From Bacteroidia bacterium (lineage in GTDB: Bacteria > Bacteroidota > Bacteroidia > M30B66), in contig OZ257142.1 in the NCBI GenBank assembly GCA_965279035.1, positions 1 through 64,000 on the forward strand: a stretch of 64,000 nucleotides of DNA. The letters are read 5' to 3'. A program made the position numbers and the translations under genes. The notes under the pieces were generated by a model that saw nothing but the letters and a program-made list of their open reading frames with translations, was not told the origin of the DNA and made no database searches. Numbering within the stretch: position 1 is the first letter of the stretch; each line of letters begins with the position of its first letter. This document shows, in pieces, positions 21,225 through 56,331 of the stretch.

Positions 21225-21244
21225 TTTGGTCAGATTAAGGGGGG

Positions 21245-39710: not shown

Positions 39711-41159
39711 TTATTCCACCTTTACCACTTTCTCCACCACAACCACCTCATCACCCTTTAAAATCCGGCAATAGTAAATCCCCGTTGCAAATCCGCTGAG
39801 AGATAAAGTATGTGTTCCCACTGCAGTAAATTGCTTCTGCTGCACCAAGCGCCCGGTTGCATCCAGAAGTTGAGCAGTGTACGCTGAGCCGGCAGTTTCT
39901 AAATCTATCCGCAGCCAGTCAGTTGCCGGATTGGGGTAAATGGTAACTGCATCGGGAAATGGCGCATCTTCGATTCCGACGCCACAGTTGGCAGGATCAA
40001 GACAGCCATCGGCATCCAATTTTACAACCCACGCGTTTTGTCCTCCACAACAAAAGTCATCATCGGCGGCGCCGCTTATTAACAAACCACCATCCTTGGT
40101 TTCAATAAAGTCGAGGAAGAAATCAGCCCAGTTTCCATGATCATACTCTTTCCTCCAAAGCAGATTGCCTAATGAATCTGATTTCATAATGAAACCAGCA
40201 TTGACGGTTGTATTGTTAATTCCAACTGAAACAATTCCTCCATCGGAAACTCTCCTCCCAATATAATTTGTGCTACTGTTCAACGACGGATAAGTTTTGT
40301 TATATAGAACATTTCCTTCCAAGTTCGTCATCACTACTTTTGGTCCTCCGACTTGATATTTATACCCAGAAAAGAGCAATTTATCGGTTCCAAACTGGCT
40401 CATACCTGCTTCAGTAATTTGAGGTATTTGCCATCCGTCTTGCCTTACCCCATTCTCATCAATACGAACTAGATATTCATGCAGTTCATTGATTGCAAAT
40501 GAACTGCCGGAGGTGCCGGAAATTAAATAATCTCCATTATCATAAACAATATTATTTGGAGAGTCCGCAATATCTTCATCAATCAATGCTTCAGCGAGCA
40601 GTTGTCCTTGACTATTTAGCCTTACGAAATAGCCATTCTGAGCCTCTGAATCAAAATATCCCCTAGAGGCCACTAACGCGATGTCCCCGCTTGGAGATTC
40701 AATTAAATCTTGGGGAGTATCGTAGTAAATAGAATCTCTGTGATAATAAGACCAGATTGTGTCCGCTAAATCAGGGCTTATTTTCAAAACAAAAATCTGA
40801 TTTCCTCCGGTTCCTCCCACTTTGCTTCGAGTATTAAATAACAGCAAATTTCCATCAACACTGCTAATCATTGAGCAAAAACCCGAAAAACGTCTAGACA
40901 AATCGTATTTAAAATTGTTCAACACGATGTTTCCTGAATCATCAAATGAATGCGCCCGCTGGAATCCGCCCTCTTCAACAAACAAACTGTATCCCGAACT
41001 TGCGATATAGTACTTACCGCTGTCAAGCTCAACAGCCCTAGATGCGCTGCCTGCTAAATTTGCCGTGTCGTTGTACGTTCTGGCAAATGTTGCGACCTGG
41101 CCTAAACTTGAAAGGCTAAGTATTAAATGAAAAAAAACAACAGCGAGAAAGTTTCTCAT
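39711..41159 (-). CDS. Array partner protein 5 (type B): secreted beta-propeller-like protein with T9SS type-A CTD
   Basis: Signal peptide SLG|Q; repeated G.(I/F).K.D..G...W motifs; DFIETKDGGLLISG...NAWVVKLDADGCL; CTD IYPNPA...GIYYCRI...EKVVK. Confidence 0.88.
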   Translation of the reverse strand: MRNFLAVVFFHLILSLSSLGQVATFARTYNDTANLAGSASRAVELDSGKYYIASSGYSLFVEEGGFQRAHSFDDSGNIVLNNFKYDLSRRFSGFCSMISSVDGNLLLFNTRSKVGGTGGNQIFVLKISPDLADTIWSYYHRDSIYYDTPQDLIESPSGDIALVASRGYFDSEAQNGYFVRLNSQGQLLAEALIDEDIADSPNNIVYDNGDYLISGTSGSSFAINELHEYLVRIDENGVRQDGWQIPQITEAGMSQFGTDKLLFSGYKYQVGGPKVVMTNLEGNVLYNKTYPSLNSSTNYIGRRVSDGGIVSVGINNTTVNAGFIMKSDSLGNLLWRKEYDHGNWADFFLDFIETKDGGLLISGAADDDFCCGGQNAWVVKLDADGCLDPANCGVGIEDAPFPDAVTIYPNPATDWLRIDLETAGSAYTAQLLDATGRLVQQKQFTAVGTHTLSLSGFATGIYYCRILKGDEVVVVEKVVKVE

Positions 41160-41635
41160 TATCTGGAAATGATTAGCCGCTGAACGCCCAACACTTCTTT
41201 ATTTTCAGCGTAAATCCGACAGAAGTAAATGCCTGCTGATAAATGGTCCAAGTGGAGATTCTCCGTGTGCTTGATTTCGCGTTTGACGAAGGATCCGCTA
41301 TGCAACGTGCGCCCGGTAATATCAATTATTTGAAAAGTGAGATTGCCAGCTTCAGCGGTACTAATGTTTAGAGTAAATATCCCTTTGTTGGGGTTGGGAT
41401 AAATGTCTACTTCAGTCTTTGCATCTTGTTTTCGTTGCGGTTTTACTTCTGCTCCTGCAAGCCTTGCCCCAGATGGTTCATCTATATAGGGATACCGATG
41501 GTAAATCGTATCGCCCCGAAGCTGCCGCGCGGCCATTGCGTAACTCTGAATACTGGACGGCACGCGGGATAAAAATTCGAGCTGTTGTTTCTGAACAGAA
41601 TCTATTTGCAGCCAGGTAAGGGAATCTTCTATCAT
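41159..41635 (-). CDS. Orphan C-terminal fragment 4 (type B) of the large protease-like protein: helical segment plus CTD, no signal peptide
   Basis: MIEDSLTWLQIDS...IQSYAMAARQLRGDTIYHRYP...IYPNPN aligns with LLRDSLTWLTIDT...VQQYALAVLQLRGDTTIEHYP...VYPNPN of 49116..55448. Confidence 0.8.
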   Translation of the reverse strand: MIEDSLTWLQIDSVQKQQLEFLSRVPSSIQSYAMAARQLRGDTIYHRYPYIDEPSGARLAGAEVKPQRKQDAKTEVDIYPNPNKGIFTLNISTAEAGNLTFQIIDITGRTLHSGSFVKREIKHTENLHLDHLSAGIYFCRIYAENKEVLGVQRLIISR

Positions 41636-41661
41636 GTCGAGAGTAAGGTAGATATAATCGG

Positions 41662-43110
41662 CTAGTTCACCTTTACCACTTTCTCCACCACAACCACCTC
41701 ATCACCGTTTAAAACCCGGCAGTAATAGATACCCGTTGCAAGTCCGCTTAGCGATAAAGTATGCGTTCCCACTACAGTAAACTGCTCCTGCTGCACCAAT
41801 CGCCCTGTTGCATCCAGAAGTTGAGCCGTATACTCTGTGCCAGCAGTTTCCAAATCTATGCGCAGCCAATCAGTTGCTGGGTTGGGATAAATCGTAACAG
41901 CATCGGGGAATGGTGCATCTTCGATTCCTACGCCACAGTTGGCTGGATCTAGGCAACCATCGGCATCGAGTTTTACTACCCAAGCATTTTGTCCGCCACA
42001 GCAAAAATCATCATCAGCAGCCCCACTGATCAATAAGCCACCATCTTTCGTTTCAATAAAGTCGAGAAAGAAATCAGACAAGTTGCCGTGGTCGTATTCT
42101 TTATGCCAAAGCAGATTTCCTAATGAATCAGATTTCATAATGAAACCAGCATTAATTGTGGTCGTATTAATGCCAACTGAAACAACACCACCATCAGAAA
42201 CTTTTCGACCGATATAACTTTCATTGTTAAACAACGAAGTATAAGTCTTATTAAAAATTATATTTCCATCAAGATCGGTCATTACTAGTTTTGGTCCACC
42301 TGCTTGGTATTTATAACCTGAAAAAAGCAATTTATCTGGTCCAAACTGGCTCATTCCACCTTCTGTAATTTGAGATAATTGCCAGCCTTCTTGTCGAATT
42401 CCATTTTCATCAAGTTTTATTAAATACTCATATCCAACGTCACTTGTAAAAGCAATCCCGGCAACACCAGCTATAAGAAATCCCCCGTCGGATGCACTAA
42501 TTATATTCTTTGGGGAATCAGCTATATTTTCATTAATTAAAGTTTCATTGACAAGTTCTCCCAGAGCATTAAGTTTAATAAAATATCCATCGTGGTCTTC
42601 AGTAGTAGTAAAATAATCTCGTGAAGCTATCAATGCAATTTCACCGCTTGTTGTTTCAATTAAATCTTCTGGAGTATCATAATACAATGAGTCATGATGG
42701 TAATATGACCAAAGTGTATCTGTTAAGTCCGGGCTTAGTTTTAATACGAAGATTTGAGTACCACCTGCATCATTAATCCAACTTCGTGTATTGAACAAAA
42801 GAAGATTACCGTCATTGCTTCTTATCATCGAGCAGAAATCGAAAAAGCGCCTTGATGGAACATAACTGAAATTATCTAAGATAATATCGCCAGAATCATC
42901 AAATGAATGAACTCTCTGAAATCCACCATCTTCTACAACCAAACTAAATCCAGAGCTAGAAATATAATAACTGCCGCTATCGAGTTCAACAGGTCTAGAT
43001 GCATTTCCACCAAAATTTGCCGTGTCATTGTAAGTACGGGCAAAAGTTGGCACCTGTGCAATACTAGATATACTTAATAAAGCAAAAAAGTATGCGACAA
43101 ATTCTTTCAT
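41662..43110 (-). CDS. Array partner protein 4 (type B), T9SS cargo
   Basis: Paralog of 39711..41159 (TFARTYNDTAN...VELDSG...GGFQR); CTD near-identical. Confidence 0.88.
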   Translation of the reverse strand: MKEFVAYFFALLSISSIAQVPTFARTYNDTANFGGNASRPVELDSGSYYISSSGFSLVVEDGGFQRVHSFDDSGDIILDNFSYVPSRRFFDFCSMIRSNDGNLLLFNTRSWINDAGGTQIFVLKLSPDLTDTLWSYYHHDSLYYDTPEDLIETTSGEIALIASRDYFTTTEDHDGYFIKLNALGELVNETLINENIADSPKNIISASDGGFLIAGVAGIAFTSDVGYEYLIKLDENGIRQEGWQLSQITEGGMSQFGPDKLLFSGYKYQAGGPKLVMTDLDGNIIFNKTYTSLFNNESYIGRKVSDGGVVSVGINTTTINAGFIMKSDSLGNLLWHKEYDHGNLSDFFLDFIETKDGGLLISGAADDDFCCGGQNAWVVKLDADGCLDPANCGVGIEDAPFPDAVTIYPNPATDWLRIDLETAGTEYTAQLLDATGRLVQQEQFTVVGTHTLSLSGLATGIYYCRVLNGDEVVVVEKVVKVN

Positions 43111-43586
43111 TACTTGGAAATGATAAATCGTTGAACACCCAGCAACTCTTTATTAGAAGTATAAACCCTACAGAAATAAATACCAACTGATAAGTTATCC
43201 AACTGTATATTTTCAATGTATTTGTTTTCCCGTTTCACGAAGGATTCGATATGCAATGTGCGCCCAGTAATATCAACTATTTCAATTGTATGTCCACCTG
43301 TTGTTATGCTAGTCACATTTAGAGAAAATATGCCTTTATTCGGATTTGGATAAATGCCTATTTCAGACTTTACTTGTTTTTTTTGTTGAGGTTCAACTTG
43401 AGTTCCAGCAAGCCTTGCACCAGATGGTACATCAATGTATGGATACCGGTGGTAAATAGTATCTCCCCGGAGTTGCCTAGCTGCCATTGCGTAACTCTGA
43501 ATACTGGACGGCACCCGCGACAAAAATTCGAGTTGCTGCTTCTGAACAGAATCTATTTGCAGCCAGGTAAGGGAATCTTCTATCAT
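43110..43586 (-). CDS. Orphan C-terminal fragment 3 (type B)
   Basis: First ~52 aa identical to fragment 4; CTD diverged; TAATG overlap with the partner start. Confidence 0.8.
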   Translation of the reverse strand: MIEDSLTWLQIDSVQKQQLEFLSRVPSSIQSYAMAARQLRGDTIYHRYPYIDVPSGARLAGTQVEPQQKKQVKSEIGIYPNPNKGIFSLNVTSITTGGHTIEIVDITGRTLHIESFVKRENKYIENIQLDNLSVGIYFCRVYTSNKELLGVQRFIISK

Positions 43587-43612
43587 GTCGAGAGTAAGGT
43601 AGATATAATCGG

Positions 43613-45076
43613 CTAGTTCACCTTTACCACTTTCTCCACCACAACCACCTCATCACCGTTTAAAACCCGGCAGTAATAGATACCCGTTGCAAGTCCGCTT
43701 AGCGATAAAGTATGCGTTCCCACTACAGTAAACTGCTCCTGCTGCACCAATCGCCCTGTTGCATCCAGCAGTTGAGCGGTATACGATGAGCCGGCAGTTT
43801 CCAAATCTATTTGCAGCCATTCTGTTGCTGGGTTAGGATATATAGTTAATGCATCAGGGAAAGGAGCATCTTCGATTCCTACACCGCAATTGGCAGGGTC
43901 AAGACATCCGTTGGCATCAAGTTTTAGCAGCCATGAGTTCTGACCTCCATCTGCGTTGCTTTGGCTAGCGGAACCGCTTATCAAAAGTCCACCATCAGAG
44001 GTTTCGATAAAATCGCTGAAGTATTCCACAAAGTCGCCTAAGGTATATTTATAATCTTTCTGCCAGAGCAAAATTCCATCGGCGTCTGTTTTCATTATAT
44101 ACCCATTATTGTTTTCAACAAAATCTAGGTTTGTGGCCAATCCCACAGAGACTATCCCCCCATCAGCAACTTTTCTTCCGATGTAGTTGATAGATGAGGA
44201 TCCAGGATAGATGTATGTTTTATTCTGAACTAAATTTCCAGCCGTATCCAAGAGAAGGATCTTTGCTTCCCCATTTGGGTAGGAGTATCCCGATAAAATA
44301 ATCTTGTTTTCATCATATAAACTCATACCACACTCAGTAATCTGAAAATAGTCTTGGCTCCAAAGAATTTGACCTTGACTGCTTATTTTCATAAGAAAAC
44401 CGTGGAGATTTGTTGAATTAGAAGGTCCGCGGGTGCCTCCAATCAAAACAGAACCATCTGCTAGTTGGGCCAAAGACTCCAGGGCCTGAATTTCACGTTC
44501 ACGAATTATCATTTCGCTTACGAATTGCCCCTGCGAATCTAGCCGTATGATTATACCCAGCATAGAGTCGTTTTCGAGTGGGCGTCTTCTTGCTGTAATA
44601 TACACTTCACCGTTGGTGGATTCAAAAATGTCAGCAGTAGTATTAAACGCACTTGAATCTGAATTAAGATAACTCCACAAAGTATCCGATAAATCCGCAC
44701 TTATTTTCTGAACAAAAATGCGGTTCTCTGTGGTATTCCCCAATTTGCTCCTCGTACTTGCCAAAAAAAGATTCTCATTATTACTTTTTATGAGTTTACT
44801 GAAACCCGAATAAGTTCTGTTTAAATCATACTCCATCCTATTTTGAATCAACTCACCTTGTTGATCCACTTGGTAGATTCGCTGGTAACTACCTTGAGAA
44901 AGACTTAATCCTCCACCTGAGGATGCAATAGAATAAACACCATCCGGATACTCAACAGGTCTTGAACTAATGTTAGAAAGATTTAATGTGTCGCGGTAGG
45001 TTTTGTTAAATGTATTTACCTGCGCTAAAAGCGACTGAAAGGAAAAAAGTAAAGCGAGGGCGAACAGTTTTTTCAT
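43613..45076 (-). CDS. Array partner protein 3 (type A), T9SS cargo
   Basis: Signal peptide LLA|Q; QVNTFNKTYRDTL...; same C-terminal block and CTD as the other partners. Confidence 0.88.
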   Translation of the reverse strand: MKKLFALALLFSFQSLLAQVNTFNKTYRDTLNLSNISSRPVEYPDGVYSIASSGGGLSLSQGSYQRIYQVDQQGELIQNRMEYDLNRTYSGFSKLIKSNNENLFLASTRSKLGNTTENRIFVQKISADLSDTLWSYLNSDSSAFNTTADIFESTNGEVYITARRRPLENDSMLGIIIRLDSQGQFVSEMIIREREIQALESLAQLADGSVLIGGTRGPSNSTNLHGFLMKISSQGQILWSQDYFQITECGMSLYDENKIILSGYSYPNGEAKILLLDTAGNLVQNKTYIYPGSSSINYIGRKVADGGIVSVGLATNLDFVENNNGYIMKTDADGILLWQKDYKYTLGDFVEYFSDFIETSDGGLLISGSASQSNADGGQNSWLLKLDANGCLDPANCGVGIEDAPFPDALTIYPNPATEWLQIDLETAGSSYTAQLLDATGRLVQQEQFTVVGTHTLSLSGLATGIYYCRVLNGDEVVVVEKVVKVN

Positions 45077-45549
45077 CGCGCCAATGTAATACGTTGCAAA
45101 GCAATTACCCCTTTGTCCTCTCCACGCAATTCAACTAAATACAGCCCATCAACAAGATCTGTGATTTCTATAGATGACCGAATCTGTTTGGCACCACCTG
45201 GGAGCTTTCCAGATTTTAACTGGCGGCCTGTGAGATCAAATATTTTCCATTCAATCTGTTCTTCTTTTTCGAGCGTGAGTTCCAAGGTGAACGTGCCGGA
45301 GTTAGGGTTGGGATAAATCCGCACGACGTTTTTCTGCCCGGTTTTCTTCGGTGTGGGTTTTATCTGTGACGCAAGGCGGGGAGATGTTGTTGATTCAAGG
45401 TCCGGATATCGGTGGTAAATCGTATCACCGCGCAATGAGCGTGCTGCAAGCGCATAACTCTGAATAATTGATTGCTCGCGCGAAAGATTTTCCAGGCGTA
45501 TTACCTGTACAGAGTCCAACTGCATCCAGGAGAGGGTATCTTCTTGCAT
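45073..45549 (-). CDS. Orphan C-terminal fragment 2 (type A)
   Basis: MQEDTLSWMQLDS...LRGDTIYHRYP...IYPNPN; near-identical to fragment 1; ATGA overlap with partner. Confidence 0.8.
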   Translation of the reverse strand: MQEDTLSWMQLDSVQVIRLENLSREQSIIQSYALAARSLRGDTIYHRYPDLESTTSPRLASQIKPTPKKTGQKNVVRIYPNPNSGTFTLELTLEKEEQIEWKIFDLTGRQLKSGKLPGGAKQIRSSIEITDLVDGLYLVELRGEDKGVIALQRITLAR

Positions 45550-45575
45550 ATCCAGGTAAAGGTCGGTATAATCGG

Positions 45576-47036
45576 CTAGTTCACCTTCACCACTTTCTCC
45601 ACCACAACCACCTCGTCACCCTTTAAAACACGGCAATAGTAAATCCCCGTTGCTAGTCCGCTTAGCGACAAGGTATGCGTTCCCACAACAGTAAACTGTT
45701 CCTGCTGCACCAAACGACCCGTTGCATCCAGCAGTTGACCGGTATACGCTGAGCCGGCTGTTTCCAAATCTATACGTAGCCAGTCGGTTGCCGGGTTCGG
45801 ATAAATAGTAACTGCATCAGGAAACGGCGCATCTTCGATTCCTACTCCGCAATTAGAAGGGTCAAGACAGCCATCGGCATCAAGTTTTAGCAGCCAGGAG
45901 TTCTGACCACCATCTGCGTTGCTTTGGCTAGCGGAACCACTTATCAAAAGGCCACCATCTGAAGTTTCGATGAAATCCGTTAAGTATTCCACAAAGTCGC
46001 CTGAAGTATATTTGTAATTTTTCTGCCAGAGCAAATTTCCATTTGGGTCGGTTTTCATAATATACCCATTATTATTATCAACGAAATCCAGGTTTGTGGC
46101 CAATCCGACCGAAACAATTCCGCCATCAGCAACTTTTCTTCCGATATAATTAATGGCAGAAAATCCCGGATAGACATAGGTTTTATTTTGAACTAAATTT
46201 CCAGAGGTATCTAAAAGAAGCATTTTGACGGTGCCGCTTGTGGTATTGTATCCTGATAAGATAACCTTGCCATCATCATATAAACTCATTCGTCCTTCTG
46301 TGATTTGTGGATAATTAAAATCCCATATAACTTCACCAAAGGAATTCACCTTCATCAGGAACCCTTGAATGTTGCCAGCATCGATTCTACGAGCTCCGCC
46401 GATTAATAGATTGCCATCCGACAATTGAACCAAACTATACGGAGATTGCTTTTTGTATTGCCTAAATACTGCTTGAGTTAAGAATTGACCCTGTGCCGTT
46501 AAATGAATAAAAACAGCAAGCATGGAATCGGAGTCAAAAAATGCTCTGTTTGCTGTGAGATAAACGCTGCCATCCGCAGCCTCTAGTAGATCTTCCGTTG
46601 TATCAAAAAAGGTCGAATCAGAATGAAAATAACTCCACAATGTATCTGATAAGTCGGCACTTATTTTCTGCACAAAAATTCTATTCCCGCCTGTGCTTCC
46701 CGCCAAACTCCTCGTGCTGGCCAAAAAGAGATCATTGCTGTTCGAGTGAATCAGTTGGCTTGCTCCCTGATATCTTCTGGAAATATCATATTCCATTCGA
46801 TTCTGGATCAACTCACCCTGATCATTGACTTGGTAGATGCGTTGGTAACCACCTTCAGCAAGACTCAATCCTCCGCCTGCCGTTGCAATACTGTAAATAC
46901 CTGGAGGGTCCTCTACTGGCCTTGAACTGATGTTGGAAAGGACAAGGGTATCCCTAAACGTTTTGTTGAACGTGTTCACCTGCGCTATTAACGAATGAAA
47001 GGAGACAAGTAAGGCGAAGGAGAAAAGGTTTTTCAT
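45576..47036 (-). CDS. Array partner protein 2 (type A), T9SS cargo
   Basis: Close paralog of 43613..45076 (YQRIYQV..QGELIQNRMEYD; IFVQKISADLSDTLWSY). Confidence 0.88.
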   Translation of the reverse strand: MKNLFSFALLVSFHSLIAQVNTFNKTFRDTLVLSNISSRPVEDPPGIYSIATAGGGLSLAEGGYQRIYQVNDQGELIQNRMEYDISRRYQGASQLIHSNSNDLFLASTRSLAGSTGGNRIFVQKISADLSDTLWSYFHSDSTFFDTTEDLLEAADGSVYLTANRAFFDSDSMLAVFIHLTAQGQFLTQAVFRQYKKQSPYSLVQLSDGNLLIGGARRIDAGNIQGFLMKVNSFGEVIWDFNYPQITEGRMSLYDDGKVILSGYNTTSGTVKMLLLDTSGNLVQNKTYVYPGFSAINYIGRKVADGGIVSVGLATNLDFVDNNNGYIMKTDPNGNLLWQKNYKYTSGDFVEYLTDFIETSDGGLLISGSASQSNADGGQNSWLLKLDADGCLDPSNCGVGIEDAPFPDAVTIYPNPATDWLRIDLETAGSAYTGQLLDATGRLVQQEQFTVVGTHTLSLSGLATGIYYCRVLKGDEVVVVEKVVKVN

Positions 47037-47656
47037 CGCGCCAGTGTAATGCGTTGCACGTCAATTACCCCTTTGTCTTCGCCACGCAATTCAACTAAAT
47101 ACAGCCCATCAACAAGATCTGTGATTTCGATTGCTGAGCGAATCTGTTTTGAGCCACCTGAAAGCGCACCTGATTTTAACTGGCGGCCTGTGAGATCAAA
47201 TATTTTCCATTCAATCTGTTCTTCTTTTTCGAGCGTGAGTTCCAAGGTGAATGAGCCGGAGTTAGGGTTGGGATAAATCCGCACGACGTTTTTCTGCCCG
47301 GTTTTTTTCGGGGTGGGTTTTATCTGTGACGCAAGGCGGGGAGATGTTGTTGATTCAAGGTCCGGATACCGGTGGTAAATCGTATCACCGCGCAATGAGC
47401 GCGCTGCAAGCGCATAACTCTGAATGATCGACTCCTCTTGCGATAATTGCTCCAGTCGTAGCACCTGCAGGGAGTCGAGTTGCATCCAGGAGAGGGTATC
47501 TTCTTGCATATCCAGGTAAAGATCGGTATAATCGGCAAACAGGCTGTCATTGCGTGTGCTGAGCGTCAATGAATCTAACCAGCGTCGGGCATCTGCCAGG
47601 CTATTTGTATTGGTTAATTTAAAGCCCGGCATCTCATCACCGATAAGCATGCTCAC
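47033..47656 (-). CDS. Orphan C-terminal fragment 1 (type A, longest)
   Basis: NSLADARRWLDSLTLSTRNDSLFADY aligns with DSLDQAEAVLDSITLSTLDDSLFVDY of the large gene; no signal peptide. Confidence 0.8.
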   Translation of the reverse strand: MSMLIGDEMPGFKLTNTNSLADARRWLDSLTLSTRNDSLFADYTDLYLDMQEDTLSWMQLDSLQVLRLEQLSQEESIIQSYALAARSLRGDTIYHRYPDLESTTSPRLASQIKPTPKKTGQKNVVRIYPNPNSGSFTLELTLEKEEQIEWKIFDLTGRQLKSGALSGGSKQIRSAIEITDLVDGLYLVELRGEDKGVIDVQRITLAR

Positions 47657-49119: not shown

Positions 49120-52100
49120 TGAATTAATGAAATTTTATGGTGTCCTAAAACTCTTCCATCTTTATCAAGTATGTTAAGTAAGTAAATACCATTGGATAGA
49201 TCATTACACGTTAACTCGATTAATTGATTACGCTCTGTTAGTTGATTTATCTGTCGAATCAAACGACCGGAAAGGTCTACAAGACTTATTATAAGATTTC
49301 CTTCATAGTCATTAACTTGTAGAGTAAATTTACCATCATTGGGATTAGGATAAACACGTGTTAAGATATTTTTACTCTTTCGATTGTATTTTGCTTCATT
49401 AGCCAACCTAGCTGAAGGTGGAAAAGCATTTTCCGGATAATGCTCAATGGTCGTATCACCGCGTAGTTGCAGAACAGCTAATGCATACTGTTGTACAGAC
49501 GAAGGAATAGAGGCCATGTTTCGAATGTCTTCTAATATTGTAGTATCTATGGTAAGCCAAGTAAGGCTATCGCGTAATAAGTTCAGATACATTTTATGGT
49601 AATCAACAAACAAGCTATCATCTAGAGTTGATAAAGTTATGGAATCGAGAACAGCTTCAGCTTGATCCAAGCTGTCGCTACCCAGATAAGTACTGAAAAG
49701 GCTTCTTTCAAAACCGGTACCAAGGCTATCTTTGTATAAGGCAGCCAGCTCATACCATTCATCTCGTTCTAACAAACTTGATTCAATTTTACTAATAGTA
49801 GTTAGCCATTCACCTCGAAAATGATGAGCTGCCCTTTTATAGGTTTCATGTGTTTGAACATAGGCGTTTTCTTTTTGCAATCCAAGCAAGCTGTCACGAG
49901 TAGCTTGATAGTAATTAGTATCTGCTAAGAGAACTCTCAATTCATTCAGTACTTTTTGTGTAGCAGGAAGGTTTAGCAGCATAAAATTGATTAACTCATT
50001 ATTACTAAATAAGTTTTCCAGACGTAAAGCAGTTACAAGCACACTATCGCTTAAAGGTGAATATAATGTTAATACAATTGATAAATCAGCTGAAGATTGA
50101 GTTGTGTCAGAAAGTATACCCAATAGGCTATCGGTTTGCATTCCATCTAAGTTTTCAAGTATTGTTTGCTTTTGTAATTCCATACTATCTGACATGAACT
50201 TAAATTGTCTGCGTTCAGCATTTAGACTGATAATATTAAGAGCTCCAGTTCCAGATGGGCAAGGATTTGACAATCCAGATCCGCAAATAGTTGTTGAGCC
50301 TGACTCAGAAATGGAACTGAATACAGGAGTTTCGACATTAATTGGTCTTGCATAATAATACCAATCTGGTGTTTGATTATTGGGGGCCCATATATGTTTA
50401 ACACCAACACCTTGATCATTAAAAATGTTTCCGGGACGGTATTGTGCAGGACCACAACCAATGCCTTGGTTATTAAATACACCCGACATACTTAACGGAT
50501 TGATATGCCAGTCATAATTATTATTGGTAAAGTCGTTACATTTTAAAAATAAATATGGGTTATTATATTCTGATTGAAAACCACGCTGTAGGTTAGTAAA
50601 ATCGTTACGTTGTATAAGCATATTTATGCCAGAACTTTGAGGCTGAAGACCTCTAGTAATTAGTCCCCAATTATATGGTTCGGCTGAACCAGATCCAATG
50701 AAATTATTTAATTGAACCTTGTTAGCAGTGCGGTAATCATAAAAATAGATACCATATGGATCAGGAATAACAGATGTATTGCCATCGGAATCTGGTATGT
50801 TAAAATCGTTATTGATATAATTATCACCACGAGCATTCTCAGAATATATTCCCATTCGACAATTGTCAAACAAAGACCCTGAACTATAAACATTATACCC
50901 GATTGATGTATTTGTAACTCGGGTAATAATTCCACGGGTTAATCCAATAAATCGGTTCCGAAGCGCATTATCGGCATTCAGATCAGATTGGTCGTCATTA
51001 TTTGGATTAGTTGAAAGAACTCTGACTTGTGCATCATACAAGGCAATTCCTTGAGTTCTGTCGTGAGACAGAAATGGGTATTCAGTGGTGGTACAACTTT
51101 CTTTTATTGAAAAGTCTCCATCATTTAGAAAAATATTATCTCTAAATATAACACCTTTTATTTCCCATGCAGATACAAACATTTGTGAGGCCAACCAGTA
51201 ATTTGTTTGACTATCGAAATAATCAGGATTTTTCAAATGATCATCGCAAATGAATAAACAGTTGGTGAATTTACTTATACTTGGAAAAGTATAAGGATGA
51301 AAAGATACTGACCGCCAGTTGTTCCTGAAAGTACTATTGGATGCTACTACAATTCCTCCTGTTACCCCCCCATACATATTGTCACCTGCATCACTCATAA
51401 AAATACCTTCTTCAGCATTTTCTATTACTGCATGATTTTTCATTTCAACTACACCTTGAACAGTATTTGCTAATGTTCCTTGTGGCTGCGAAGCAATACC
51501 CATTAATCTAATTCCTCTCCACATAGTACAGGAACTAGTTAGAGTTCCGCCATCTAAAATCAGTTTACCCCCAGGCTGAATAAGTATCATAGCATCATCA
51601 GGAAATTCTACTTTACAAGTTATAGTTAACGTGCGTCCTGGATAGACAATTATATCATTGTAAACTCTAATATCAAGTTCCCAAGTTTCGTTCATATTTA
51701 TACCAATAGGAGTACTAGAATAAGGACAATCGTCTATAAAGCGTTTCAAATTAGTAATAGATGCTGCTTTATGAATTTTTCCAACTTGATTAGGTGAATA
51801 ATATAAGTAACTCTGATAATTACCGCCCATCACATTATTAGTTGTCCTTGTATAACATGGGTCATTAGGATCATTTATATAAGGATCAACAACTAATGCA
51901 CCAGGTGGACATCCTGAAGGATGAACTATTTGTCCATGAGGGCAATTCAGATCATTTCCATCAATTACTCCAAATAAATCTAGTAACCCATCAAAATCAG
52001 AATCTTGATCTTCGATAGTACAATAAATTCCATTTTGATATAAATGTACTAAGTCTAACATGTGAGCAATTTCATGTGCAACATGTCTAGTGAAAGCCCA

Positions 52101-55100
52101 TACAAAACCTTCAAGTCCATTTAATTGATATGATTCAAAAGCTTTTCTAGAAAATGCATACATTGGATCATTTTGATTGCAAGATGGAGGTGTGGCATTA
52201 CCATATGCACCGCCAACATTATTAACTAAAAAGTAATTAAAGTCATCTTCTATTTCGCATCCAAACTCAGCAATAGCTTGTTGGTAGAGATTTAAACGAA
52301 GATTAGAACTTGAGTAATCAGCATTAAATTGTGTATTTGTTACAGGCATAAATAGAATTCGTTCAATATAAAAATCAATTCGTGCTGAATTCAATTCATT
52401 AATTGGAAGTATAATTGGATCTGACGGATTTCCATTTCCAGTAAAAAGCGATTTTATTGACCATGCTTGATTTGTTTCAAAAACTTGTCGAATTGCATTA
52501 ATATGGCTAGGAATATCCTCAAAATTCCCAGGTAAATTCGGAGCGGAATTTTGCACAACTATAACATTAATTCCAATTCTTTTGATAGGAATAAATGTAC
52601 TTGAATTGTCACTAGGCTGATAGAATTTAAATTTGTAATAACGTTCGCTGTTTTCTGGAAATACATATGAGGGATCATTAATATATTGAGAACAACCTCC
52701 ACATGCTAAACGGTCGGTTGCCATATAGTTACAAACAACGGTGTTGCTCTCTGTAGATTGAGTTGGAAGTGAAATTTTTGACTCACAACCTGTATTTTCA
52801 GTTATGACAGCATTAATTGTATCTCCTAAAACAGCATTATTTAATATTAAAATACTGTCTTTCCCAACATAAAGTAATTGATTGTTTAGACTAAATTGAT
52901 ATGATTTCTGATTAGGTGAGAATCTTACTACTTGAGCTTTTTGCAAAAATGTATCAACTCCGGTTACATAAGAAGGAGTAAGAAAACACTTACCAACCAA
53001 ATTTAATATAGTAGGAAAAGAATTAATGCTTGTTACCGCTTGAACATTTCCAATTGTGCTATTTCCTGAATAGGTGCCATTGCCTTTATCTTTCCATTGG
53101 CTGCCATCCCAGATGGTAATTTTCGCATCAACAGGGTTAGAACTATAGCACGGATTATTACTCCAACCCAATTTGGCATTTGTTGTTCCTGTTCCTGCTG
53201 TGCGGTCTAATTTCCAATAACCACAACGATTTACAAAACCTAATGTGGAATCTTTGCTCGATCTTGAATAGTTGCTGTTTGGGTCTGTTCCAAAATATGA
53301 AGCTTTAAACGTTGTGTTGCTTGAAACTGAATCGATACTTATTGGTGCATACTGCCCTCCACCACCAGTCGGAAATGTAAATTCGGTGATTCCCATTTTG
53401 CTGATTGCTCCTTCTACATAGGAAGAATCACTGCCTTGTGATGCGATGGCAAAATATTCGAGAAACAGCGAATTGGTATCACTTATTTGTACAATGCCTT
53501 TGCTTAGATTGAGCGCACTTAGAATATGAAGAGGGACATCGATGATAAGCTGCCCATTGGGCTTTTCAACGTTTAATGTTGCCATTGAAAAATCATTAAA
53601 GGTGCCCGTAGATTCAATGTGTTGGTCATCCTCTCCAACAAATCGCATAGCACTCCCTTGATTTAAATCGGGAGATGTGCTGCCTCTGAATTCAAGGTTT
53701 TTGTAAATATCAGAACTACCATCACTTGCTGTCATCACTTTTCCATCACCTGTACATTCGATAATTAAATCATCCCAAAATTGATTGTTAGAAGCATCAT
53801 AATTTAAAAGGAAATACCCATCCGAACTGGTTTTAAAATGAGCCTTTCCATAAAACACCATGCTTCCACCACCTTGATCATAGCCACTTCCGGTTTTGTG
53901 TAATAGGGTATTTCCGTGATAAAAACCTCCATTGGTTACGATGGATGGAAGTTCCACGTTAAGTGGTCCTTGAATTTGACATTGACTCAATACAAGGCGC
54001 GAATTATCCGTTCCTGTAAAAGTTATGCTATCTGTATTGGTTGATCGAAAACCCAATAGATCCAATTCGGAATTTGCAAATGATGTAGTATAAATAGTTC
54101 CGCTACTGCCTTGTTTTATCATACCCAATACAACCAAACCACCCGTACAATTTAAATTAATATTTCCTTGAACGATATTGGTATCGGTTGAATATTCCCC
54201 TAATGCTATACGTCCAGCAGATGAGCTAATTTTTAAATCACCACCAATTGATAAAAATCCATTGCTTGCAATATCGATGGAGCCCTCATCAGTATTAATC
54301 AAGCTGAGATCGGAACGAAATGAGCAAGAATCGTCTAATGCAGTTAAAAAGGAACCAGTGCCAGAATTGGTTAACGAAAACGGAGCGTTGGTTATAATTG
54401 GTCCGAAACGAGGCTGATTTGATTCCGGTCCTATTTTAACAAAACTGGTTGAATCATTGAATGTTGAATTGCCTATGTAAATGGATTGAGCTGAGCAATT
54501 TACTTTAGAGTTAAATATACTACCTTGATCAATATAGAGGGAATTACCTTTTTGATTATCATCCATTTGGATAGATAAGGAATCATCTAGCGTAACTCCA
54601 CGAAACCTTAATTCACCAACAAACCAACCAGTCTCAGAAAGACTTATTGGGGCTCCAGAATGAAAATGAGCATTTCGTGTAAACTCAAGTGCATTTGCTC
54701 CATTGTTCCCAATGAGAACTGGAGCATAAAAATCGACCGATGCCGAATCAGCGCCATCGCAGAAATAGATGGACGAATTTGACTTCATATCGATTCGGCA
54801 AAATCCATTGATCTGTGTGTTAACAGAGTTATGAGCAAAGTGAAAAACTCCAGGATTTAAATATACACCATCATAAGAAATTATTTGTAAACTATCTTGA
54901 AAGGTATCGGGTGCATCATAACCAAAATACAAATCGGCAGCACCTTCATTTGAAATCTTCAATGATTTTTCAAACGTGTTTCCACCGCAATAACTTGGAG
55001 AACTGCTACTAACGGCAATTGAGCTTGCTTTTTTAAAAACACAATTTGAAATAGTAGAAGTCCCAATTAATGCTAAAATAGTGACATCCAATTGTGAATT

Positions 55101-55448
55101 CGTTAATTGAATAGATTGATAAGTTAATGGTCCAGTTATTTGAAGATCTCCATGTTTAATGCTTGCTTCATTCATGGCAAACCGGCCATTGATTGTCAAA
55201 AGATATCCTCCTAAATCGAGTTCAGCACCACTCGTTAGTATTATTGTATAACAATAGGTATTTCCGGATAATACTGGTTTATTGCTAGAGGAATGAATAT
55301 AAATTGTATCTGCCCAACTGGGTGATGAAGGGCTCCAATTAGCAGCAGTACTCCAATTTGTGCTAACAGTACCTGTCCACGTTCTTGACGACGCAAAAGC
55401 ACATTGGTTCAAAATTAAAATGAATAGCAGGAGAAGGAAATTTTTCAT
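49116..55448 (-). CDS. Very large T9SS-secreted protein: N-terminal beta-helix region, central metzincin (M43/pappalysin-like) zinc protease domain, second beta-helix, helical domain, type-A CTD; probable start 55448
   Basis: Signal peptide MKNFLLLLFILILNQCAFA; WTGTVSTNWSTAANW; HEIAHMLDLVH (52044..52076) plus Met-turn NNVMGG; CTD VYPNPN...DLSGR...NGIYLL. Confidence 0.85.
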   Translation of the reverse strand: MKNFLLLLFILILNQCAFASSRTWTGTVSTNWSTAANWSPSSPSWADTIYIHSSSNKPVLSGNTYCYTIILTSGAELDLGGYLLTINGRFAMNEASIKHGDLQITGPLTYQSIQLTNSQLDVTILALIGTSTISNCVFKKASSIAVSSSSPSYCGGNTFEKSLKISNEGAADLYFGYDAPDTFQDSLQIISYDGVYLNPGVFHFAHNSVNTQINGFCRIDMKSNSSIYFCDGADSASVDFYAPVLIGNNGANALEFTRNAHFHSGAPISLSETGWFVGELRFRGVTLDDSLSIQMDDNQKGNSLYIDQGSIFNSKVNCSAQSIYIGNSTFNDSTSFVKIGPESNQPRFGPIITNAPFSLTNSGTGSFLTALDDSCSFRSDLSLINTDEGSIDIASNGFLSIGGDLKISSSAGRIALGEYSTDTNIVQGNINLNCTGGLVVLGMIKQGSSGTIYTTSFANSELDLLGFRSTNTDSITFTGTDNSRLVLSQCQIQGPLNVELPSIVTNGGFYHGNTLLHKTGSGYDQGGGSMVFYGKAHFKTSSDGYFLLNYDASNNQFWDDLIIECTGDGKVMTASDGSSDIYKNLEFRGSTSPDLNQGSAMRFVGEDDQHIESTGTFNDFSMATLNVEKPNGQLIIDVPLHILSALNLSKGIVQISDTNSLFLEYFAIASQGSDSSYVEGAISKMGITEFTFPTGGGGQYAPISIDSVSSNTTFKASYFGTDPNSNYSRSSKDSTLGFVNRCGYWKLDRTAGTGTTNAKLGWSNNPCYSSNPVDAKITIWDGSQWKDKGNGTYSGNSTIGNVQAVTSINSFPTILNLVGKCFLTPSYVTGVDTFLQKAQVVRFSPNQKSYQFSLNNQLLYVGKDSILILNNAVLGDTINAVITENTGCESKISLPTQSTESNTVVCNYMATDRLACGGCSQYINDPSYVFPENSERYYKFKFYQPSDNSSTFIPIKRIGINVIVVQNSAPNLPGNFEDIPSHINAIRQVFETNQAWSIKSLFTGNGNPSDPIILPINELNSARIDFYIERILFMPVTNTQFNADYSSSNLRLNLYQQAIAEFGCEIEDDFNYFLVNNVGGAYGNATPPSCNQNDPMYAFSRKAFESYQLNGLEGFVWAFTRHVAHEIAHMLDLVHLYQNGIYCTIEDQDSDFDGLLDLFGVIDGNDLNCPHGQIVHPSGCPPGALVVDPYINDPNDPCYTRTTNNVMGGNYQSYLYYSPNQVGKIHKAASITNLKRFIDDCPYSSTPIGINMNETWELDIRVYNDIIVYPGRTLTITCKVEFPDDAMILIQPGGKLILDGGTLTSSCTMWRGIRLMGIASQPQGTLANTVQGVVEMKNHAVIENAEEGIFMSDAGDNMYGGVTGGIVVASNSTFRNNWRSVSFHPYTFPSISKFTNCLFICDDHLKNPDYFDSQTNYWLASQMFVSAWEIKGVIFRDNIFLNDGDFSIKESCTTTEYPFLSHDRTQGIALYDAQVRVLSTNPNNDDQSDLNADNALRNRFIGLTRGIITRVTNTSIGYNVYSSGSLFDNCRMGIYSENARGDNYINNDFNIPDSDGNTSVIPDPYGIYFYDYRTANKVQLNNFIGSGSAEPYNWGLITRGLQPQSSGINMLIQRNDFTNLQRGFQSEYNNPYLFLKCNDFTNNNYDWHINPLSMSGVFNNQGIGCGPAQYRPGNIFNDQGVGVKHIWAPNNQTPDWYYYARPINVETPVFSSISESGSTTICGSGLSNPCPSGTGALNIISLNAERRQFKFMSDSMELQKQTILENLDGMQTDSLLGILSDTTQSSADLSIVLTLYSPLSDSVLVTALRLENLFSNNELINFMLLNLPATQKVLNELRVLLADTNYYQATRDSLLGLQKENAYVQTHETYKRAAHHFRGEWLTTISKIESSLLERDEWYELAALYKDSLGTGFERSLFSTYLGSDSLDQAEAVLDSITLSTLDDSLFVDYHKMYLNLLRDSLTWLTIDTTILEDIRNMASIPSSVQQYALAVLQLRGDTTIEHYPENAFPPSARLANEAKYNRKSKNILTRVYPNPNDGKFTLQVNDYEGNLIISLVDLSGRLIRQINQLTERNQLIELTCNDLSNGIYLLNILDKDGRVLGHHKISLIH

Positions 55449-55483
55449 GGGATAATTTTTTTGAAATAATGGATATGGAATTT

Positions 55484-55924
55484 TCAATATGCTTTGCCTG
55501 AATAATGAGCTACAATTGTTCCCGCAGCATTTTTTGCATCAATGCTTAAAAAACAATCTCGTCGGTTTACCCAATTACCAATTCCGGCAGAGCAAATGAT
55601 TCCTTTACGCTTGAACCATATGATAGATGAAATAATGCTAAGACTATTAAAAGAAAAGGATTGATCATAAAAATCAGATCCATTGAGTGAGCTTCCTAAT
55701 CTAATTTGTATGGTCGAAATATTGGAAGTATCAGCTACTTCGAAAGCCAAGGTCTTGGTTTCGGTTACAATCAACGAATCGCCACCAAACGAGGAAGAAA
55801 CAGTGGCTGTATCTGTAGTCATCAAGGGCGTCTTCACATGTATTCTAGAGATTGAATTCGGTTGTGCAGCAAGTGTGAATGCGGATAAACAGGCGAAGAG
55901 ATAAAGAATAGATACTTTATTCAT
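55484..55924 (-). CDS. Small secreted hypothetical protein, first gene of the protease operon
   Basis: 146 aa, signal peptide LAA|Q, beta-rich; 35 bp upstream of the probable start of the large gene. Confidence 0.65.
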   Translation of the reverse strand: MNKVSILYLFACLSAFTLAAQPNSISRIHVKTPLMTTDTATVSSSFGGDSLIVTETKTLAFEVADTSNISTIQIRLGSSLNGSDFYDQSFSFNSLSIISSIIWFKRKGIICSAGIGNWVNRRDCFLSIDAKNAAGTIVAHYSGKAY

Positions 55925-56196
55925 GTGGCGATATTTTAAAATAGTTAAACTAAATAAAGCAACAATTTTCGCAAAAGCAAGCTAACGAGATTAAAATTCC
56001 AGCGAGAGAAGAAAATTTAACATTTGGGAAATTTATATAATATCATTTCGTAGTAATATCAGACTATACAGCTATGTTGCTTTTTAAATGCTCCTCATTT
56101 TTTAACATTCTATCTTTTTAAGTTAGAACTACATCACTATTTCAATCATATTAATTGAGATACCATTCTGCTTTTTACTATGTATCTAATTGCAAA

Positions 56197-56331
56197 ATCT
56201 AGCATGTGCGATTAATTGCCTCGGACTGAAGTCCGAGGGTGCGGAAGTTAGAGATCAGCAATCTGTTTGAGTTTATATTAATCGGATCTAGCATGTTTGA
56301 CACGTAGCCTCGTACTTTAGTCCGAGAGTGC
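56197..56331. repeat. Two ~46-bp direct repeats 89 bp apart, each with a REP-like palindrome
   Basis: atctagcatgt...gCCTCGGACTgaAGTCCGAGGgtgc (56197) and atctagcatgt...gCCTCGtACTttAGTCCGAGagtgc (56286). Confidence 0.75.

What the first reader, a model, noticed from the sequence alone, without database searches (positions are those of the whole stretch)
39711..55924. Polymorphic T9SS cassette array: giant metalloprotease followed by orphan C-terminus/partner modules
Seen in sequence: the full-length 2.1-kaa gene is coupled (ATGA) to a ~485-aa T9SS partner. Four ~1.95-kb units follow, each a signal-less 3' fragment homologous to the last ~160-190 aa of the big gene plus another partner paralog. 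Fragments 2-4 all begin at the same junction (partner stop ...gtgaacTAG running into gccgattata, the ADY codons). The fragments resemble each other more than they resemble the resident gene, so they are not simple local duplications of it. Established: orphan CT-immunity modules behind rhs and cdiA genes have this layout and can be swapped in by recombination. Inference: this is an analogous cassette system on the T9SS. Here the catalytic domain is central and stays fixed, and the varied unit is the CTD plus a co-secreted propeller-like partner. The partner could be a specificity/adhesin subunit or a library of inhibitors against rival proteases. I do not know of a described system like this.
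Basis: partly seen in the sequence, partly recalled or inferred. Interest (0 to 1): 0.92.

Follow-up and report, generated by a model that had tools for sequence, protein, structure and literature searches.

The report
Tandem T9SS propeller-gene array with gene tails
A giant secreted protein gene is followed by five variable copies of a secreted propeller-protein gene, and four of them are preceded by a small, well-preserved copy of the giant gene's tail; the layout recurs in other bacteria and does not seem to have been described.

Summary
On the minus strand lie a 2,123-codon T9SS cargo gene, a 488-aa partner (P0), then four units. Each unit is a signal-less copy of a giant-gene tail (F1-F4: 207, 158, 158, 158 codons) plus a partner paralog (P1-P4). 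Units 2-4 share one junction.

The array is not an assembly artefact. Error-free read-derived contigs bridge most junctions, and the same architecture occurs in independent assemblies (G002, G070, G001, G336).

The Rhs/CdiA reading is only partly supported:
- The tail is a two-helix hairpin, a linker and a type A sorting domain. It holds no toxin.
- The partner is a secreted beta-propeller, not an immunity protein.
- The resident gene and the cassettes share no exact match over 13 nt.
- In G070 the tails derive from the resident gene's own end.

The tails are not decaying relics. All are intact, tightly coupled ORFs with dN/dS about 0.15 (F3-F4 hairpin: 14 synonymous, 0 nonsynonymous changes). 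Partner bodies are hypervariable mosaics on a conserved 3' block.

Best reading (confidence 0.5): a tandem-duplication, gene-conversion paralog array that diversifies a surface propeller, with the tails kept as selected, translated leader ORFs. New variant of a known kind; interest 0.66.

The parts
55484..55924 (-). 146-aa ORF with a hydrophobic N-terminus, immediately upstream of the giant gene. No family hit.
49116..55487 (-). Giant T9SS cargo gene (2,123 codons from TTG; 2,110 aa as called in the database). It has a signal peptide, repeat-rich N-terminal part, HEIAHMLDLVH motif, a long C-terminal region before the CTD that I read by eye as helical (about 450 aa; only its last two helices were modelled, through F4), and a type A CTD at residues 2045-2113.
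52044..52076 (-). HExxHxxxxxH zinc-protease-like motif (giant residues 1138-1148). HExxH is kept in 5 of 5 homologues that have the region. The third His is at the same spacing in 4 of 5.
   Evidence: Pfam Reprolysin_5 only E 0.14.
47653..49119 (-). P0, the resident partner: 488 aa with signal peptide, beta-propeller and type A CTD. It is 29-32% identical to P1-P4.
47033..47656 (-). F1, a type A tail ORF of 207 codons. Its GTG start overlaps the P0 stop. Homology to giant-type tails starts within about 8 codons of that stop.
45576..47036 (-). P1, a type A partner paralog of 486 aa.
45073..45549 (-). F2, a type A tail ORF of 158 codons. Homology (ADY...) starts at 45576, overlapping the last base (G) of the P1 stop codon TAG, 26 nt before the ATG.
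43613..45076 (-). P2, a type A partner paralog of 487 aa, 73% identical to P1.
43110..43586 (-). F3, a type B tail ORF of 158 codons, with the same junction as F2 and F4.
41662..43110 (-). P3, a type B partner paralog of 482 aa. A near-copy of its first half lies elsewhere in the genome (P0007).
41159..41635 (-). F4, a type B tail ORF of 158 codons. The model shows helices 8-24 and 30-42, a disordered linker and a 7-strand CTD sandwich.
39711..41159 (-). P4, a type B partner paralog of 482 aa and the last gene of the array. The model shows a beta-propeller plus a CTD sandwich (pLDDT 86).
45576..45876 (-). Conserved 3' block of the partner gene, running into the junction. Copies also lie at 43613-43913, 41662-41962 and 39711-40011. 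The block is 85-93% identical at the DNA level while partner bodies are 53-75%. It is the presumed anchor for unequal crossover and gene conversion.

Best explanation
This is a genuine, single-copy, co-directional 11-gene cluster in a roughly 4.2-Mb contig. It encodes a giant T9SS-secreted surface protein and five paralogous T9SS-secreted beta-propeller proteins.

I read it as a paralog array with gene birth and loss and concerted evolution.
1. A unit made of the last part of a giant gene plus the adjacent propeller gene was duplicated in tandem.
2. That unit was amplified, which explains the identical junction in units 2-4.
3. The units have since exchanged segments by unequal crossover and gene conversion, anchored on the conserved last ~300 nt of the propeller gene.

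The result is a set of co-expressed, hypervariable, mosaic propeller bodies on a constant C-terminal part. This is a diversity generator for a surface, possibly lectin-like, protein that works beside the giant protein.

The giant-gene tails are not relics. They are kept as translated ORFs. The most likely reason is that each promoter-less propeller gene is translated by coupling to the ORF in front of it. The peptide itself (two-helix hairpin, linker, CTD) is also under purifying selection for a role that is still unknown.

Shown: the anatomy, the recurrence, the selection signal, the mosaicism and the lack of homology with the resident gene. Inferred: duplication as the origin in this genome, co-transcription, coupling as the reason for retention, and surface binding as the partner's role.
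For: Real array:
- Logan contigs from 4 runs (1 study, 2 samples; possibly the source sample) have 0 mismatches and bridge giant/P0 and P0/F1 (47492-53240), F1/P1 and P1/F2 (45532-47111), F2/P2 (43739-45151) and F4/P4 (39726-41561). Their depth is like that of the flank.
- The contig is 4,200,666 bp.

Recurrence:
- G070 has giant-P-F-P-F-P with one shared junction.
- G002 has giant-P-F-P.
- G001 has P-P-F-P and a second locus P-F-X.
- G336 and G022 also have such units.
- 6 of the 13 genomes that carry the tail module (400 searched) have at least one stand-alone tail ORF.
- 14 of 19 partner genes with known context directly follow a giant-type tail: 4 full-length and 10 orphan.

Local duplication:
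- The G070 orphans are 65-77% aa and 78-81% nt identical to the resident gene's end.
- Units 2-4 here share a junction.

Selection on the tails:
- F1-F2: dN/dS 0.15 (16.5 nonsynonymous vs 29.5 synonymous changes, Fisher p 4e-10).
- F3-F4: dN/dS 0.15 (p 1e-16). The hairpin codons 1-48 show 14 synonymous and 0 nonsynonymous changes.
- G070 orphan pair, first 140 codons: 18.5 synonymous vs 5.5 nonsynonymous.
- G001 orphan pair, first 55 codons: 13 vs 7.
- All 4 tails here are open frames, as are the tails found in other genomes.

Coupling: stop/start overlaps or gaps of 26 nt or less at every junction.

Concerted evolution and mosaicism:
- Synonymous divergence in the partner's last 60 codons between P2 and P3 is 0.08, against saturation elsewhere.
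- The 3' 273 nt are 85-93% identical among P1-P4.
- P0007 is 88-98% like P3 over columns 0-250, then 92% like P0002 where it is only 57% like P3. P0003 is likewise mosaic.

Hypervariable partner: L003 and L004 flanks are 86.7% identical over 7.2 kb, yet the partner body is not alignable as DNA and is 48% identical as protein.

Partner fold: beta-propeller plus CTD, pLDDT 86. The best PDB matches are the CylK propeller (TMq 0.60), seven-bladed lectins and BamB.
Against: - In this window the resident tail and P0 are only 35-38% and about 30% identical to the cassettes.
- Their third-position GC is 0.24-0.28, against 0.29-0.50 in the cassettes. So at least one step here was not a simple local duplication. 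Either the resident pair or the cassettes were replaced or imported.
- The tails lack a signal peptide, so a T9SS sorting domain made in the cytoplasm has no obvious job.
- Translational coupling alone would keep a frame open, but it would not give dN/dS of 0.15.
- One partner gene (L001 11138-12580) follows another partner gene with no tail between them, so a tail is not strictly needed.
- No expression data could be obtained.
- The dN/dS values are Nei-Gojobori estimates on mosaic sequences. Import of segments from functional full-length alleles of other strains could mimic selection on orphans.
Confidence: 0.5

Rival explanations
1. First reader's model. This is an Rhs/CdiA-like polymorphic system on the T9SS. 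Each orphan tail plus partner is a displaced or stored module that can be recombined onto the giant gene to change its C-terminus and its cognate partner.
For: - The layout matches.
- An orphan tail in one genome is 79% identical to the live tail of a full-length gene in another (L001 vs L003).
- The resident tail type occurs as an orphan elsewhere (P0087, 53%).
- Partial giants P0081 and P0082 carry type A/B-like tails at 44-55% identity.
- A 77%-identical CTD plus partner module sits behind two unrelated cargo genes in G002.
- The cassettes differ from the resident pair in third-position GC.
- Intact frames and low dN/dS are also what periodically re-used silent cassettes would show.
Against: - The tail holds no toxin or effector domain.
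- The partner is a 482-488-aa secreted propeller, not an immunity-type protein.
- The longest exact match between the resident giant+P0 and any cassette is 13 nt.
- No second full-length gene with this tail module was found on the 4.2-Mb contig: of 35 hits, only the gene itself and P0228, which has a different C-terminus.
- G001, G022 and G365 show orphans but no full-length gene, with the caveat that these MAGs may be incomplete.
- Units 2-4 share a junction.
- Tail and partner do not co-vary tightly: L001F/L003 tails are 79% identical but their partners only 53%.
Confidence: 0.2
2. The stand-alone tail ORFs are a small-protein family with a function of their own. The CTD-plus-partner pair would then be a functional cognate module, comparable to type B CTD cargo and the PorP/SprF-like gene encoded just downstream.
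For: - Purifying selection on orphan pairs that share a junction in three lineages.
- Orphan starts differ between lineages, but all orphans keep the second helix, the linker and the CTD.
- 19 M-starting proteins of 124-219 aa (besides the window's own F2 and F4) are among the best profile matches that include the helical part, in a library of 1.84 billion representatives.
- 14 of 19 partner genes follow such a tail (calls listed under the best explanation).
- Passages of PMC12618676 describe cognate CTD/shuttle pairs for type B CTDs.
Against: - There is no signal peptide, so the CTD cannot reach the T9SS.
- The partner is itself a cargo protein, not an outer-membrane shuttle.
- The hairpin and the CTD are joined by a disordered linker and do not form one domain (pTM 0.50).
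- The CTD part of the G001 orphans has been swapped while the hairpin stayed.
Confidence: 0.2
3. The tails are neutral debris of duplications: pseudogene remnants without function that merely have not decayed yet.
For: They are truncated copies without a signal peptide. Bacterial tandem duplications often carry partial genes.
Against: - 4 of 4 frames here are intact despite synonymous divergence of 0.3 to above 2.
- dN/dS is 0.15 with p below 1e-9.
- The same pattern holds in G070 and G001.
- Orphans sharing the start 'MNHTC.SLF' (P0089, P0093) represent different 50%-identity clusters yet keep all conserved positions.
Confidence: 0.06
4. The array is an assembly artefact: strain variants of one tail-plus-partner region were strung together in tandem.
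For: The units contain exact repeats of up to 156 nt. The P2/F3 and P3/F4 junctions were not among the bridging pieces listed.
Against: - The contig is 4.2 Mb.
- Mismatch-free contigs bridge 6 of the 10 gene junctions (a seventh, F3/P3, is bridged by a contig with 2-10 mismatches), at depths equal to the flank in organism-labelled runs.
- The same architecture is seen in unrelated assemblies G001, G002, G070 and G336.
Confidence: 0.03

Closest known systems
Orphan CT/immunity module arrays behind rhs and cdiA genes. Basis: recalled knowledge; for PMC3967940 I saw only the search listing and the start of the abstract.
   Same: A full-length gene is followed, in the same orientation, by 5'-truncated copies of its 3' end, each paired with the next gene. 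Orphan types also occur as live tips of full-length genes in other genomes.
   Different: - The repeated tail is a linker-like hairpin plus a secretion signal, not a toxin.
- The paired gene is a large secreted propeller, not a small immunity protein.
- No homology tract links the orphans to the resident gene.
- The orphans have start codons and are under purifying selection.
- Arrays exist without any parent gene.
Type B CTD cargo genes with a cognate PorP/SprF-like gene directly downstream in Flavobacterium johnsoniae. Basis: passages of PMC12618676 read; for PMC9143113 only the listing.
   Same: A T9SS sorting domain and the gene right behind it behave as a linked pair. 'Orphan' members exist.
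   Different: - Here the CTD is type A (Por_Secre_tail).
- The downstream gene encodes a beta-propeller cargo with its own CTD, not an outer-membrane beta-barrel shuttle.
- In that paper 'orphan' means unlinked, not truncated.
Tandem multigene families evolving by unequal crossover and gene conversion, and silent-cassette systems such as pilE/pilS or vls (recalled, not tested against a reference).
   Same: Conserved blocks flank hypervariable bodies. Alleles are mosaic. Near-identical tracts sit between otherwise saturated paralogs.
   Different: - All five partner copies are complete genes with signal peptides, probably co-expressed, so they are not silent cassettes.
- The truncated elements (the tails) are not the diversified part.
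TANFOR polymorphic toxins of Bacteroidetes. Basis: passages of PMC7073777 read.
   Same: Large Bacteroidetes proteins in T9SS-rich neighbourhoods with variable C-terminal ends.
   Different: Those carry C-terminal nuclease or other toxin domains with immunity genes. The word 'orphan' does not occur in that paper (0 occurrences). No TANFOR or toxin domain was found here.

Membership tests
Rhs/CdiA-type polymorphic toxin locus with orphan modules | A full-length gene followed by co-oriented 5'-truncated 3' fragments, each with a downstream partner gene | tested here: met
Rhs/CdiA-type polymorphic toxin locus with orphan modules | The variable C-terminal part is a toxin/effector domain | tested here: not met
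   The tail is two helices, a disordered linker and Por_Secre_tail. Pfam and NCBIfam give only the sorting domain.
Rhs/CdiA-type polymorphic toxin locus with orphan modules | The downstream gene encodes a small, non-secreted cognate immunity protein | tested here: not met
   The partner is 482-488 aa with an N-terminal signal-like sequence, a beta-propeller and its own type A CTD.
Rhs/CdiA-type polymorphic toxin locus with orphan modules | Orphans share a homology tract with the main gene that allows recombination | tested here: not met
   The longest exact match between the resident gene and the cassettes is 13 nt. DNA identity is 29-66% per 100-nt window.
Rhs/CdiA-type polymorphic toxin locus with orphan modules | Orphan types occur as tips of full-length genes in other genomes | tested here: inconclusive
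   Met within the family: the L001 orphan is 79% identical to the L003 giant tail. For types A and B of this window, the nearest long forms are only 44-55% identical (P0081, P0082). Close relatives of this genome could not be fetched.
T9SS type A CTD cargo | C-terminal Por_Secre_tail / TIGR04183 domain above the curated cut-off | tested here: met
   Giant 44.5 bits; the three partners scanned (P0, P1, P4) 45-49 bits; the three tails scanned (F1, F2, F4) 40-45 bits, all against a cut-off of 27 or 23.
T9SS type A CTD cargo | N-terminal Sec signal peptide | tested here: inconclusive
   No signal-peptide predictor was available. By reading the sequence, the giant (from M14) and P0-P4 have hydrophobic leaders ending ...AQ, with Q invariant in 12 of 12 partners. 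F1-F4 have none, so the tails fail this feature.
Metzincin-like zinc metalloprotease (giant gene) | HExxHxxGxxH-type zinc-binding motif | tested here: met
   HEIAHMLDLVH at residues 1138-1148. HExxH is kept in 5 of 5 homologues and the third His at the same spacing in 4 of 5. The consensus itself is recalled.
Metzincin-like zinc metalloprotease (giant gene) | Significant match to a curated peptidase family or a solved protease | tested here: not met
   Reprolysin_5 at E 0.14, 12.8 bits against a cut-off of 27. NCBIfam gives none. PDB phmmer gives 0 hits at E up to 10.
Silent-cassette antigenic variation (pilS/vls type) | Promoter-less partial copies donate segments to one expression site through shared conserved blocks | tested here: not met
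   The tails share no blocks with the giant gene. The partner copies do share a conserved 3' block and form mosaics, but they are complete genes.

The most novel reading that the evidence does not exclude
The pair of T9SS type A sorting-domain tail and downstream propeller gene is a mobile, polymorphic 3' cassette of Bacteroidota. It can be attached to different cargo genes, stored in arrays and reshuffled between genomes. Its signal-less tail ORFs form a previously unrecognised class of selected small proteins (helical hairpin plus CTD) that act inside the cell or in partner production. On this reading it would be a T9SS counterpart of polymorphic secretion-system loci, built around surface specificity rather than toxins.
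Probability: 0.3. Interest if true: 0.85.

Novelty: new variant of a known kind. Interest (0 to 1): 0.66.

Why it matters
T9SS cargo genes are usually treated as independent genes with a removable sorting tag. Here the tag-coding end of a cargo gene, together with the next gene, behaves as a heritable unit. The unit is duplicated, kept under selection, recombined and found behind different genes in several uncultured Bacteroidota lineages.

If the tail ORFs are translated, this points to an unknown use for a T9SS sorting domain made without a signal peptide. If they serve only as coupling leaders, it is a clear natural example of how organisms that lack Shine-Dalgarno-led initiation keep promoter-less paralogs expressed.

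The hypervariable, mosaic propeller family is a candidate surface-recognition repertoire (prey, polysaccharide or phage interface). That can be tested with glycan or cell-binding assays.

Three full-text searches returned no paper describing such arrays.

Tried and rejected
1. Whole genome of the window: not held. The second tail/partner locus implied by P0007 and by variant contigs could therefore not be read.
2. The search for homologous proteins with F1, 'longer' setting: no hit among 1,755 candidates of 364-2,000 aa. This is weak, because giants above 2,000 aa were outside the range searched.
3. Metagenome scan with the partner alignment: 249 of 603 stretches were relatives, but only 1 of the 80 kept loci (L077) covered the whole partner. 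The rest matched the CTD only.
4. Complex prediction with P4 (residues 20-482) and F4: no verdict, score 0.00 in two runs. This is not evidence either way.
5. RNA evidence: no RNA holder was listed among the 4 runs found.
6. Sigma-70-type promoter and terminator scans over 39.0-56.6 kb gave 58 and 11 sites, against 54.5 and 13.4 expected. Uninformative.
7. A Bacteroidetes-type TAnnTTTG motif (recalled) occurs at the same place in the 3' block of P1-P3. It is simply the codons for I-D-L and is lost in P4 by a synonymous change. No conclusion.
8. Programmed -1 frameshifting from partner into tail: every tail frame is -1 relative to the upstream partner and is open for 12-62 codons upstream. I saw no slippery heptamer by eye, and ATGA/GTGA overlaps are ordinary. 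Left untested.
9. Earlier findings of this scan: nothing on this genome or this sequence.
10. ESM Atlas with F4: only generic clusters of short Por_Secre_tail proteins.
11. GC3 as a guide to which part is foreign: ambiguous, because the other giant cargo genes of the window also have the lowest GC3, 0.21-0.24.
12. P2/F3 and P3/F4 junctions: no bridging piece was among those listed (281 pieces were not shown).

Full report
**Anatomy**

The feature lies on the minus strand. The order is:
- a 146-aa ORF with a hydrophobic N-terminus (55924..55484);
- a giant gene (55487..49116), 2,123 codons from a TTG and 2,110 aa as called in the public collection;
- P0 (49119..47653, 488 aa);
- four units: F1/P1, F2/P2, F3/P3 and F4/P4, ending at 39711.

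A roughly 400-nt spacer and a DEAD-box helicase gene follow.

Unit spacing is 1951, 1951 and 1963 nt. Genes overlap by 1-4 nt or are at most 26 nt apart.

Pfam and NCBIfam find a type A T9SS sorting domain above cut-off in the giant, in the three partners scanned (P0, P1, P4) and in the three tails scanned (F1, F2, F4). They find nothing else of note.

The 'metalloprotease' label rests on HEIAHMLDLVH at residues 1138-1148. HExxH is kept in 5 of 5 homologues. The only family match is Reprolysin_5 at E 0.14, and there is no PDB sequence match.

- F1 matches giant residues 1937-2121 at 37%. F2-F4 match about 1970-2121 at 35-38%.
- F1-F2 are 92% identical, F3-F4 76%, and type A versus type B 41-44%.
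- P1-P2 are 73%, P3-P4 74%, A versus B 50-52%, and P0 versus the others 29-32%.
- Units 2-4 begin at one junction. The partner stop TAG runs straight into the ADY codons.
- Unit 1 has another junction: the F1 GTG start overlaps the P0 stop.

**Is the array real?**

- The window's proteins sit on a contig of 4,200,666 bp.
- Four organism-labelled runs of one study hold 87-90% of the array's sampled words. They may include the source sample, so they are not independent support.
- Their k-mer contigs, with 0 mismatches and depths like the flank, bridge giant/P0, P0/F1, F1/P1, P1/F2, F2/P2 and F4/P4. F3/P3 is bridged with 2-10 differences.
- The P2/F3 and P3/F4 junctions were not among the pieces listed.
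- Extra variant contigs over 41.8-43.6 kb fit a second U3-like copy elsewhere in the genome. This agrees with P0007, a sixth partner on the same 4.2-Mb contig but outside the window.

**Recurrence**

Full-length partner relatives are rare.
- In the genome-contig scan, 4 of 76 loci cover most of the query.
- In the metagenome scan, 1 of the 80 kept loci does.
- In the protein search, 34 of 76 hits cover at least 95% of the query.

Their neighbourhoods nevertheless repeat the architecture:
- G002: giant-P-F-P.
- G070: giant-P-F-P-F-P, with one junction shared by both tails.
- G001: P-P-F-P, plus a second locus P-relic-F-X, and no full-length gene with this tail.
- G336 and G022: F-P units.

A profile of the tail module found it in 13 of 400 sampled genomes of the class. 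20 of the 22 listed matches include the helical part. Of those 20, 9 are open frames under 300 aa away from contig ends, 10 are frames of 500 aa or more, and 1 is cut by a contig end. 6 of the 13 genomes have at least one stand-alone tail.

Of 19 partner genes whose upstream neighbour I could read:
- 4 follow a full-length giant-type gene;
- 10 follow a stand-alone tail;
- 1 follows an unrelated 365-aa cargo whose 79-aa CTD is 77% identical to the giant's CTD in the same genome;
- 1 follows another partner directly;
- 3 have none of these.

In a library of 1.84 billion representatives, 19 M-starting proteins of 124-219 aa (besides the window's own F2 and F4) are among the best matches that include the helical part.

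**The tails are not decaying**

All four are open frames with start codons. Nei-Gojobori estimates give:
- F1-F2: dN/dS 0.15 (29.5 synonymous, 16.5 nonsynonymous changes; Fisher p 4e-10).
- F3-F4: dN/dS 0.15 (55.8 and 45.2; p 1e-16).
- F3-F4 hairpin, codons 1-48: 14 synonymous changes and no nonsynonymous change.

Orphan pairs that share a junction behave alike in two other lineages. In G070 the first 140 codons show 18.5 synonymous against 5.5 nonsynonymous changes. In G001 the first 55 codons show 13 against 7.

The F4 model (pLDDT 82) shows two helices, a disordered linker and a seven-strand CTD sandwich, with no packing between the two parts (pTM 0.50).

Orphan starts differ between lineages, from about 281 aa in G070 down to 124-130 aa. 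All orphans keep the second helix, the linker and the CTD.

Only the gene itself and P0228 were found as giant paralogs on the 4.2-Mb contig, among 35 hits. P0228 shares 78% identity over the N-terminal 37% but has a different C-terminus. Intragenomic refreshment of the orphans from a live type A or B gene is therefore unlikely, within the limits of that search.

**The partner**

The P4 model (pLDDT 86) is a beta-propeller followed by a CTD sandwich. The best PDB matches are the CylK propeller (TMq 0.60), seven-bladed lectins and BamB.

Its last ~300 nt are 85-93% identical among P1-P4, while the bodies are 53-75% identical. Synonymous divergence between P2 and P3 drops to 0.08 in the last 60 codons and is saturated elsewhere.

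Between two related genomes the flanks are 86.7% identical over 7.2 kb, but the partner body is not alignable as DNA.

Alleles are mosaics. P0007 follows P3 (88-98%) for 250 columns, then follows P0002 (92%) where it is only 57% like P3. P0003 switches between P3-, P4- and P0002-like segments.

**Against the Rhs/CdiA reading**

- There is no effector domain in the tail.
- The partner is a secreted cargo and occurs alone (L077).
- No exact match over 13 nt links the resident gene to any cassette, whereas cassettes share runs of 26-156 nt.
- The shared junction points to amplification of an already-orphan unit.
- The G070 tails are 65-77% identical to the resident gene's own end.
- Tail and partner do not co-vary tightly: 79% against 53% for L001/L003.

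**For the Rhs/CdiA reading**

- Orphan and live tails are matched across genomes.
- The CTD-plus-partner module sits behind two different cargo genes in G002.
- The resident pair here is strongly diverged from the cassettes and differs in GC3 (0.24-0.28 against 0.29-0.50). A purely local duplication does not explain this.

**Verdict**

The array is real and recurrent, and three full-text searches returned no paper that describes it.

I favour a tandem-duplication and gene-conversion paralog array that diversifies a surface propeller, with the giant-gene tails retained as selected, translationally coupled ORFs (confidence 0.5).

The polymorphic-cassette reading keeps about 0.2. A reading in which the tail ORFs have a function of their own, as part of a CTD-partner module, also keeps about 0.2.

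What the signal-less tail proteins do remains unexplained, and it is the most interesting open point.

Noticed in passing
window 7811-8326 (-), next to 1980-7802 (-) and 473-1924 (-): A 171-aa stand-alone ORF carries a CHU_C (type B) T9SS signal domain. It sits directly upstream of a 1,940-aa protein with 16 PKD stretches and no CTD hit, which is followed by a 483-aa ORF with no family. This may be another detached sorting-domain ORF, of the other CTD type.
   Followed up: partly
outside the window, same 4.2-Mb contig (P0228): A second giant gene (2,162 aa) is 78% identical to the resident giant over 37% of its length (the N-terminal part), but has a wholly different C-terminal half and CTD. 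The giant genes are therefore mosaics too.
   Followed up: partly
outside the window (P0007); variant contigs over window 41800-43580: A sixth partner paralog with an F3-like tail in front of it exists elsewhere in the genome. The variant contig continues upstream of the F3 start with diverged but homologous codons. Its context could not be read.
   Followed up: partly
window 56100-56410: In all 4 runs a contig 'goes back 55' at 56272/56218 with 34 other letters between. There are several loose ends and a 1-nt deletion at 56151 at about half depth. The spacer upstream of the cluster holds a repeat or a variant copy.
   Followed up: no
L177 6668-8080 (-) and L192 4125-5498 (-): In G001 and G365 a stand-alone tail ORF is followed by a different 457-470-aa T9SS cargo instead of the propeller partner. 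The two are 24-27% identical to each other and have only a Por_Secre_tail hit.
   Followed up: partly
L177 8520-8706: Between the 489-aa partner and the tail ORF of the second G001 locus lies a relic of the last ~20 codons of another partner gene. It is nearly identical to the sequence in front of the first G001 tail. The block 'partner 3' end plus tail' therefore moved as one piece.
   Followed up: partly
L003 338-6685: The giant homologue of G003 is split into two ORFs (1,509 and 563 aa) with a gap of about 125 nt. This could be a frameshift, a broken gene or an assembly error.
   Followed up: no
window 1980-7802, 15807-21260, 49116-55487: The three giant cargo genes have the lowest third-position GC in the window (0.21-0.24, against mostly 0.27-0.42 for other genes).
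   Followed up: no
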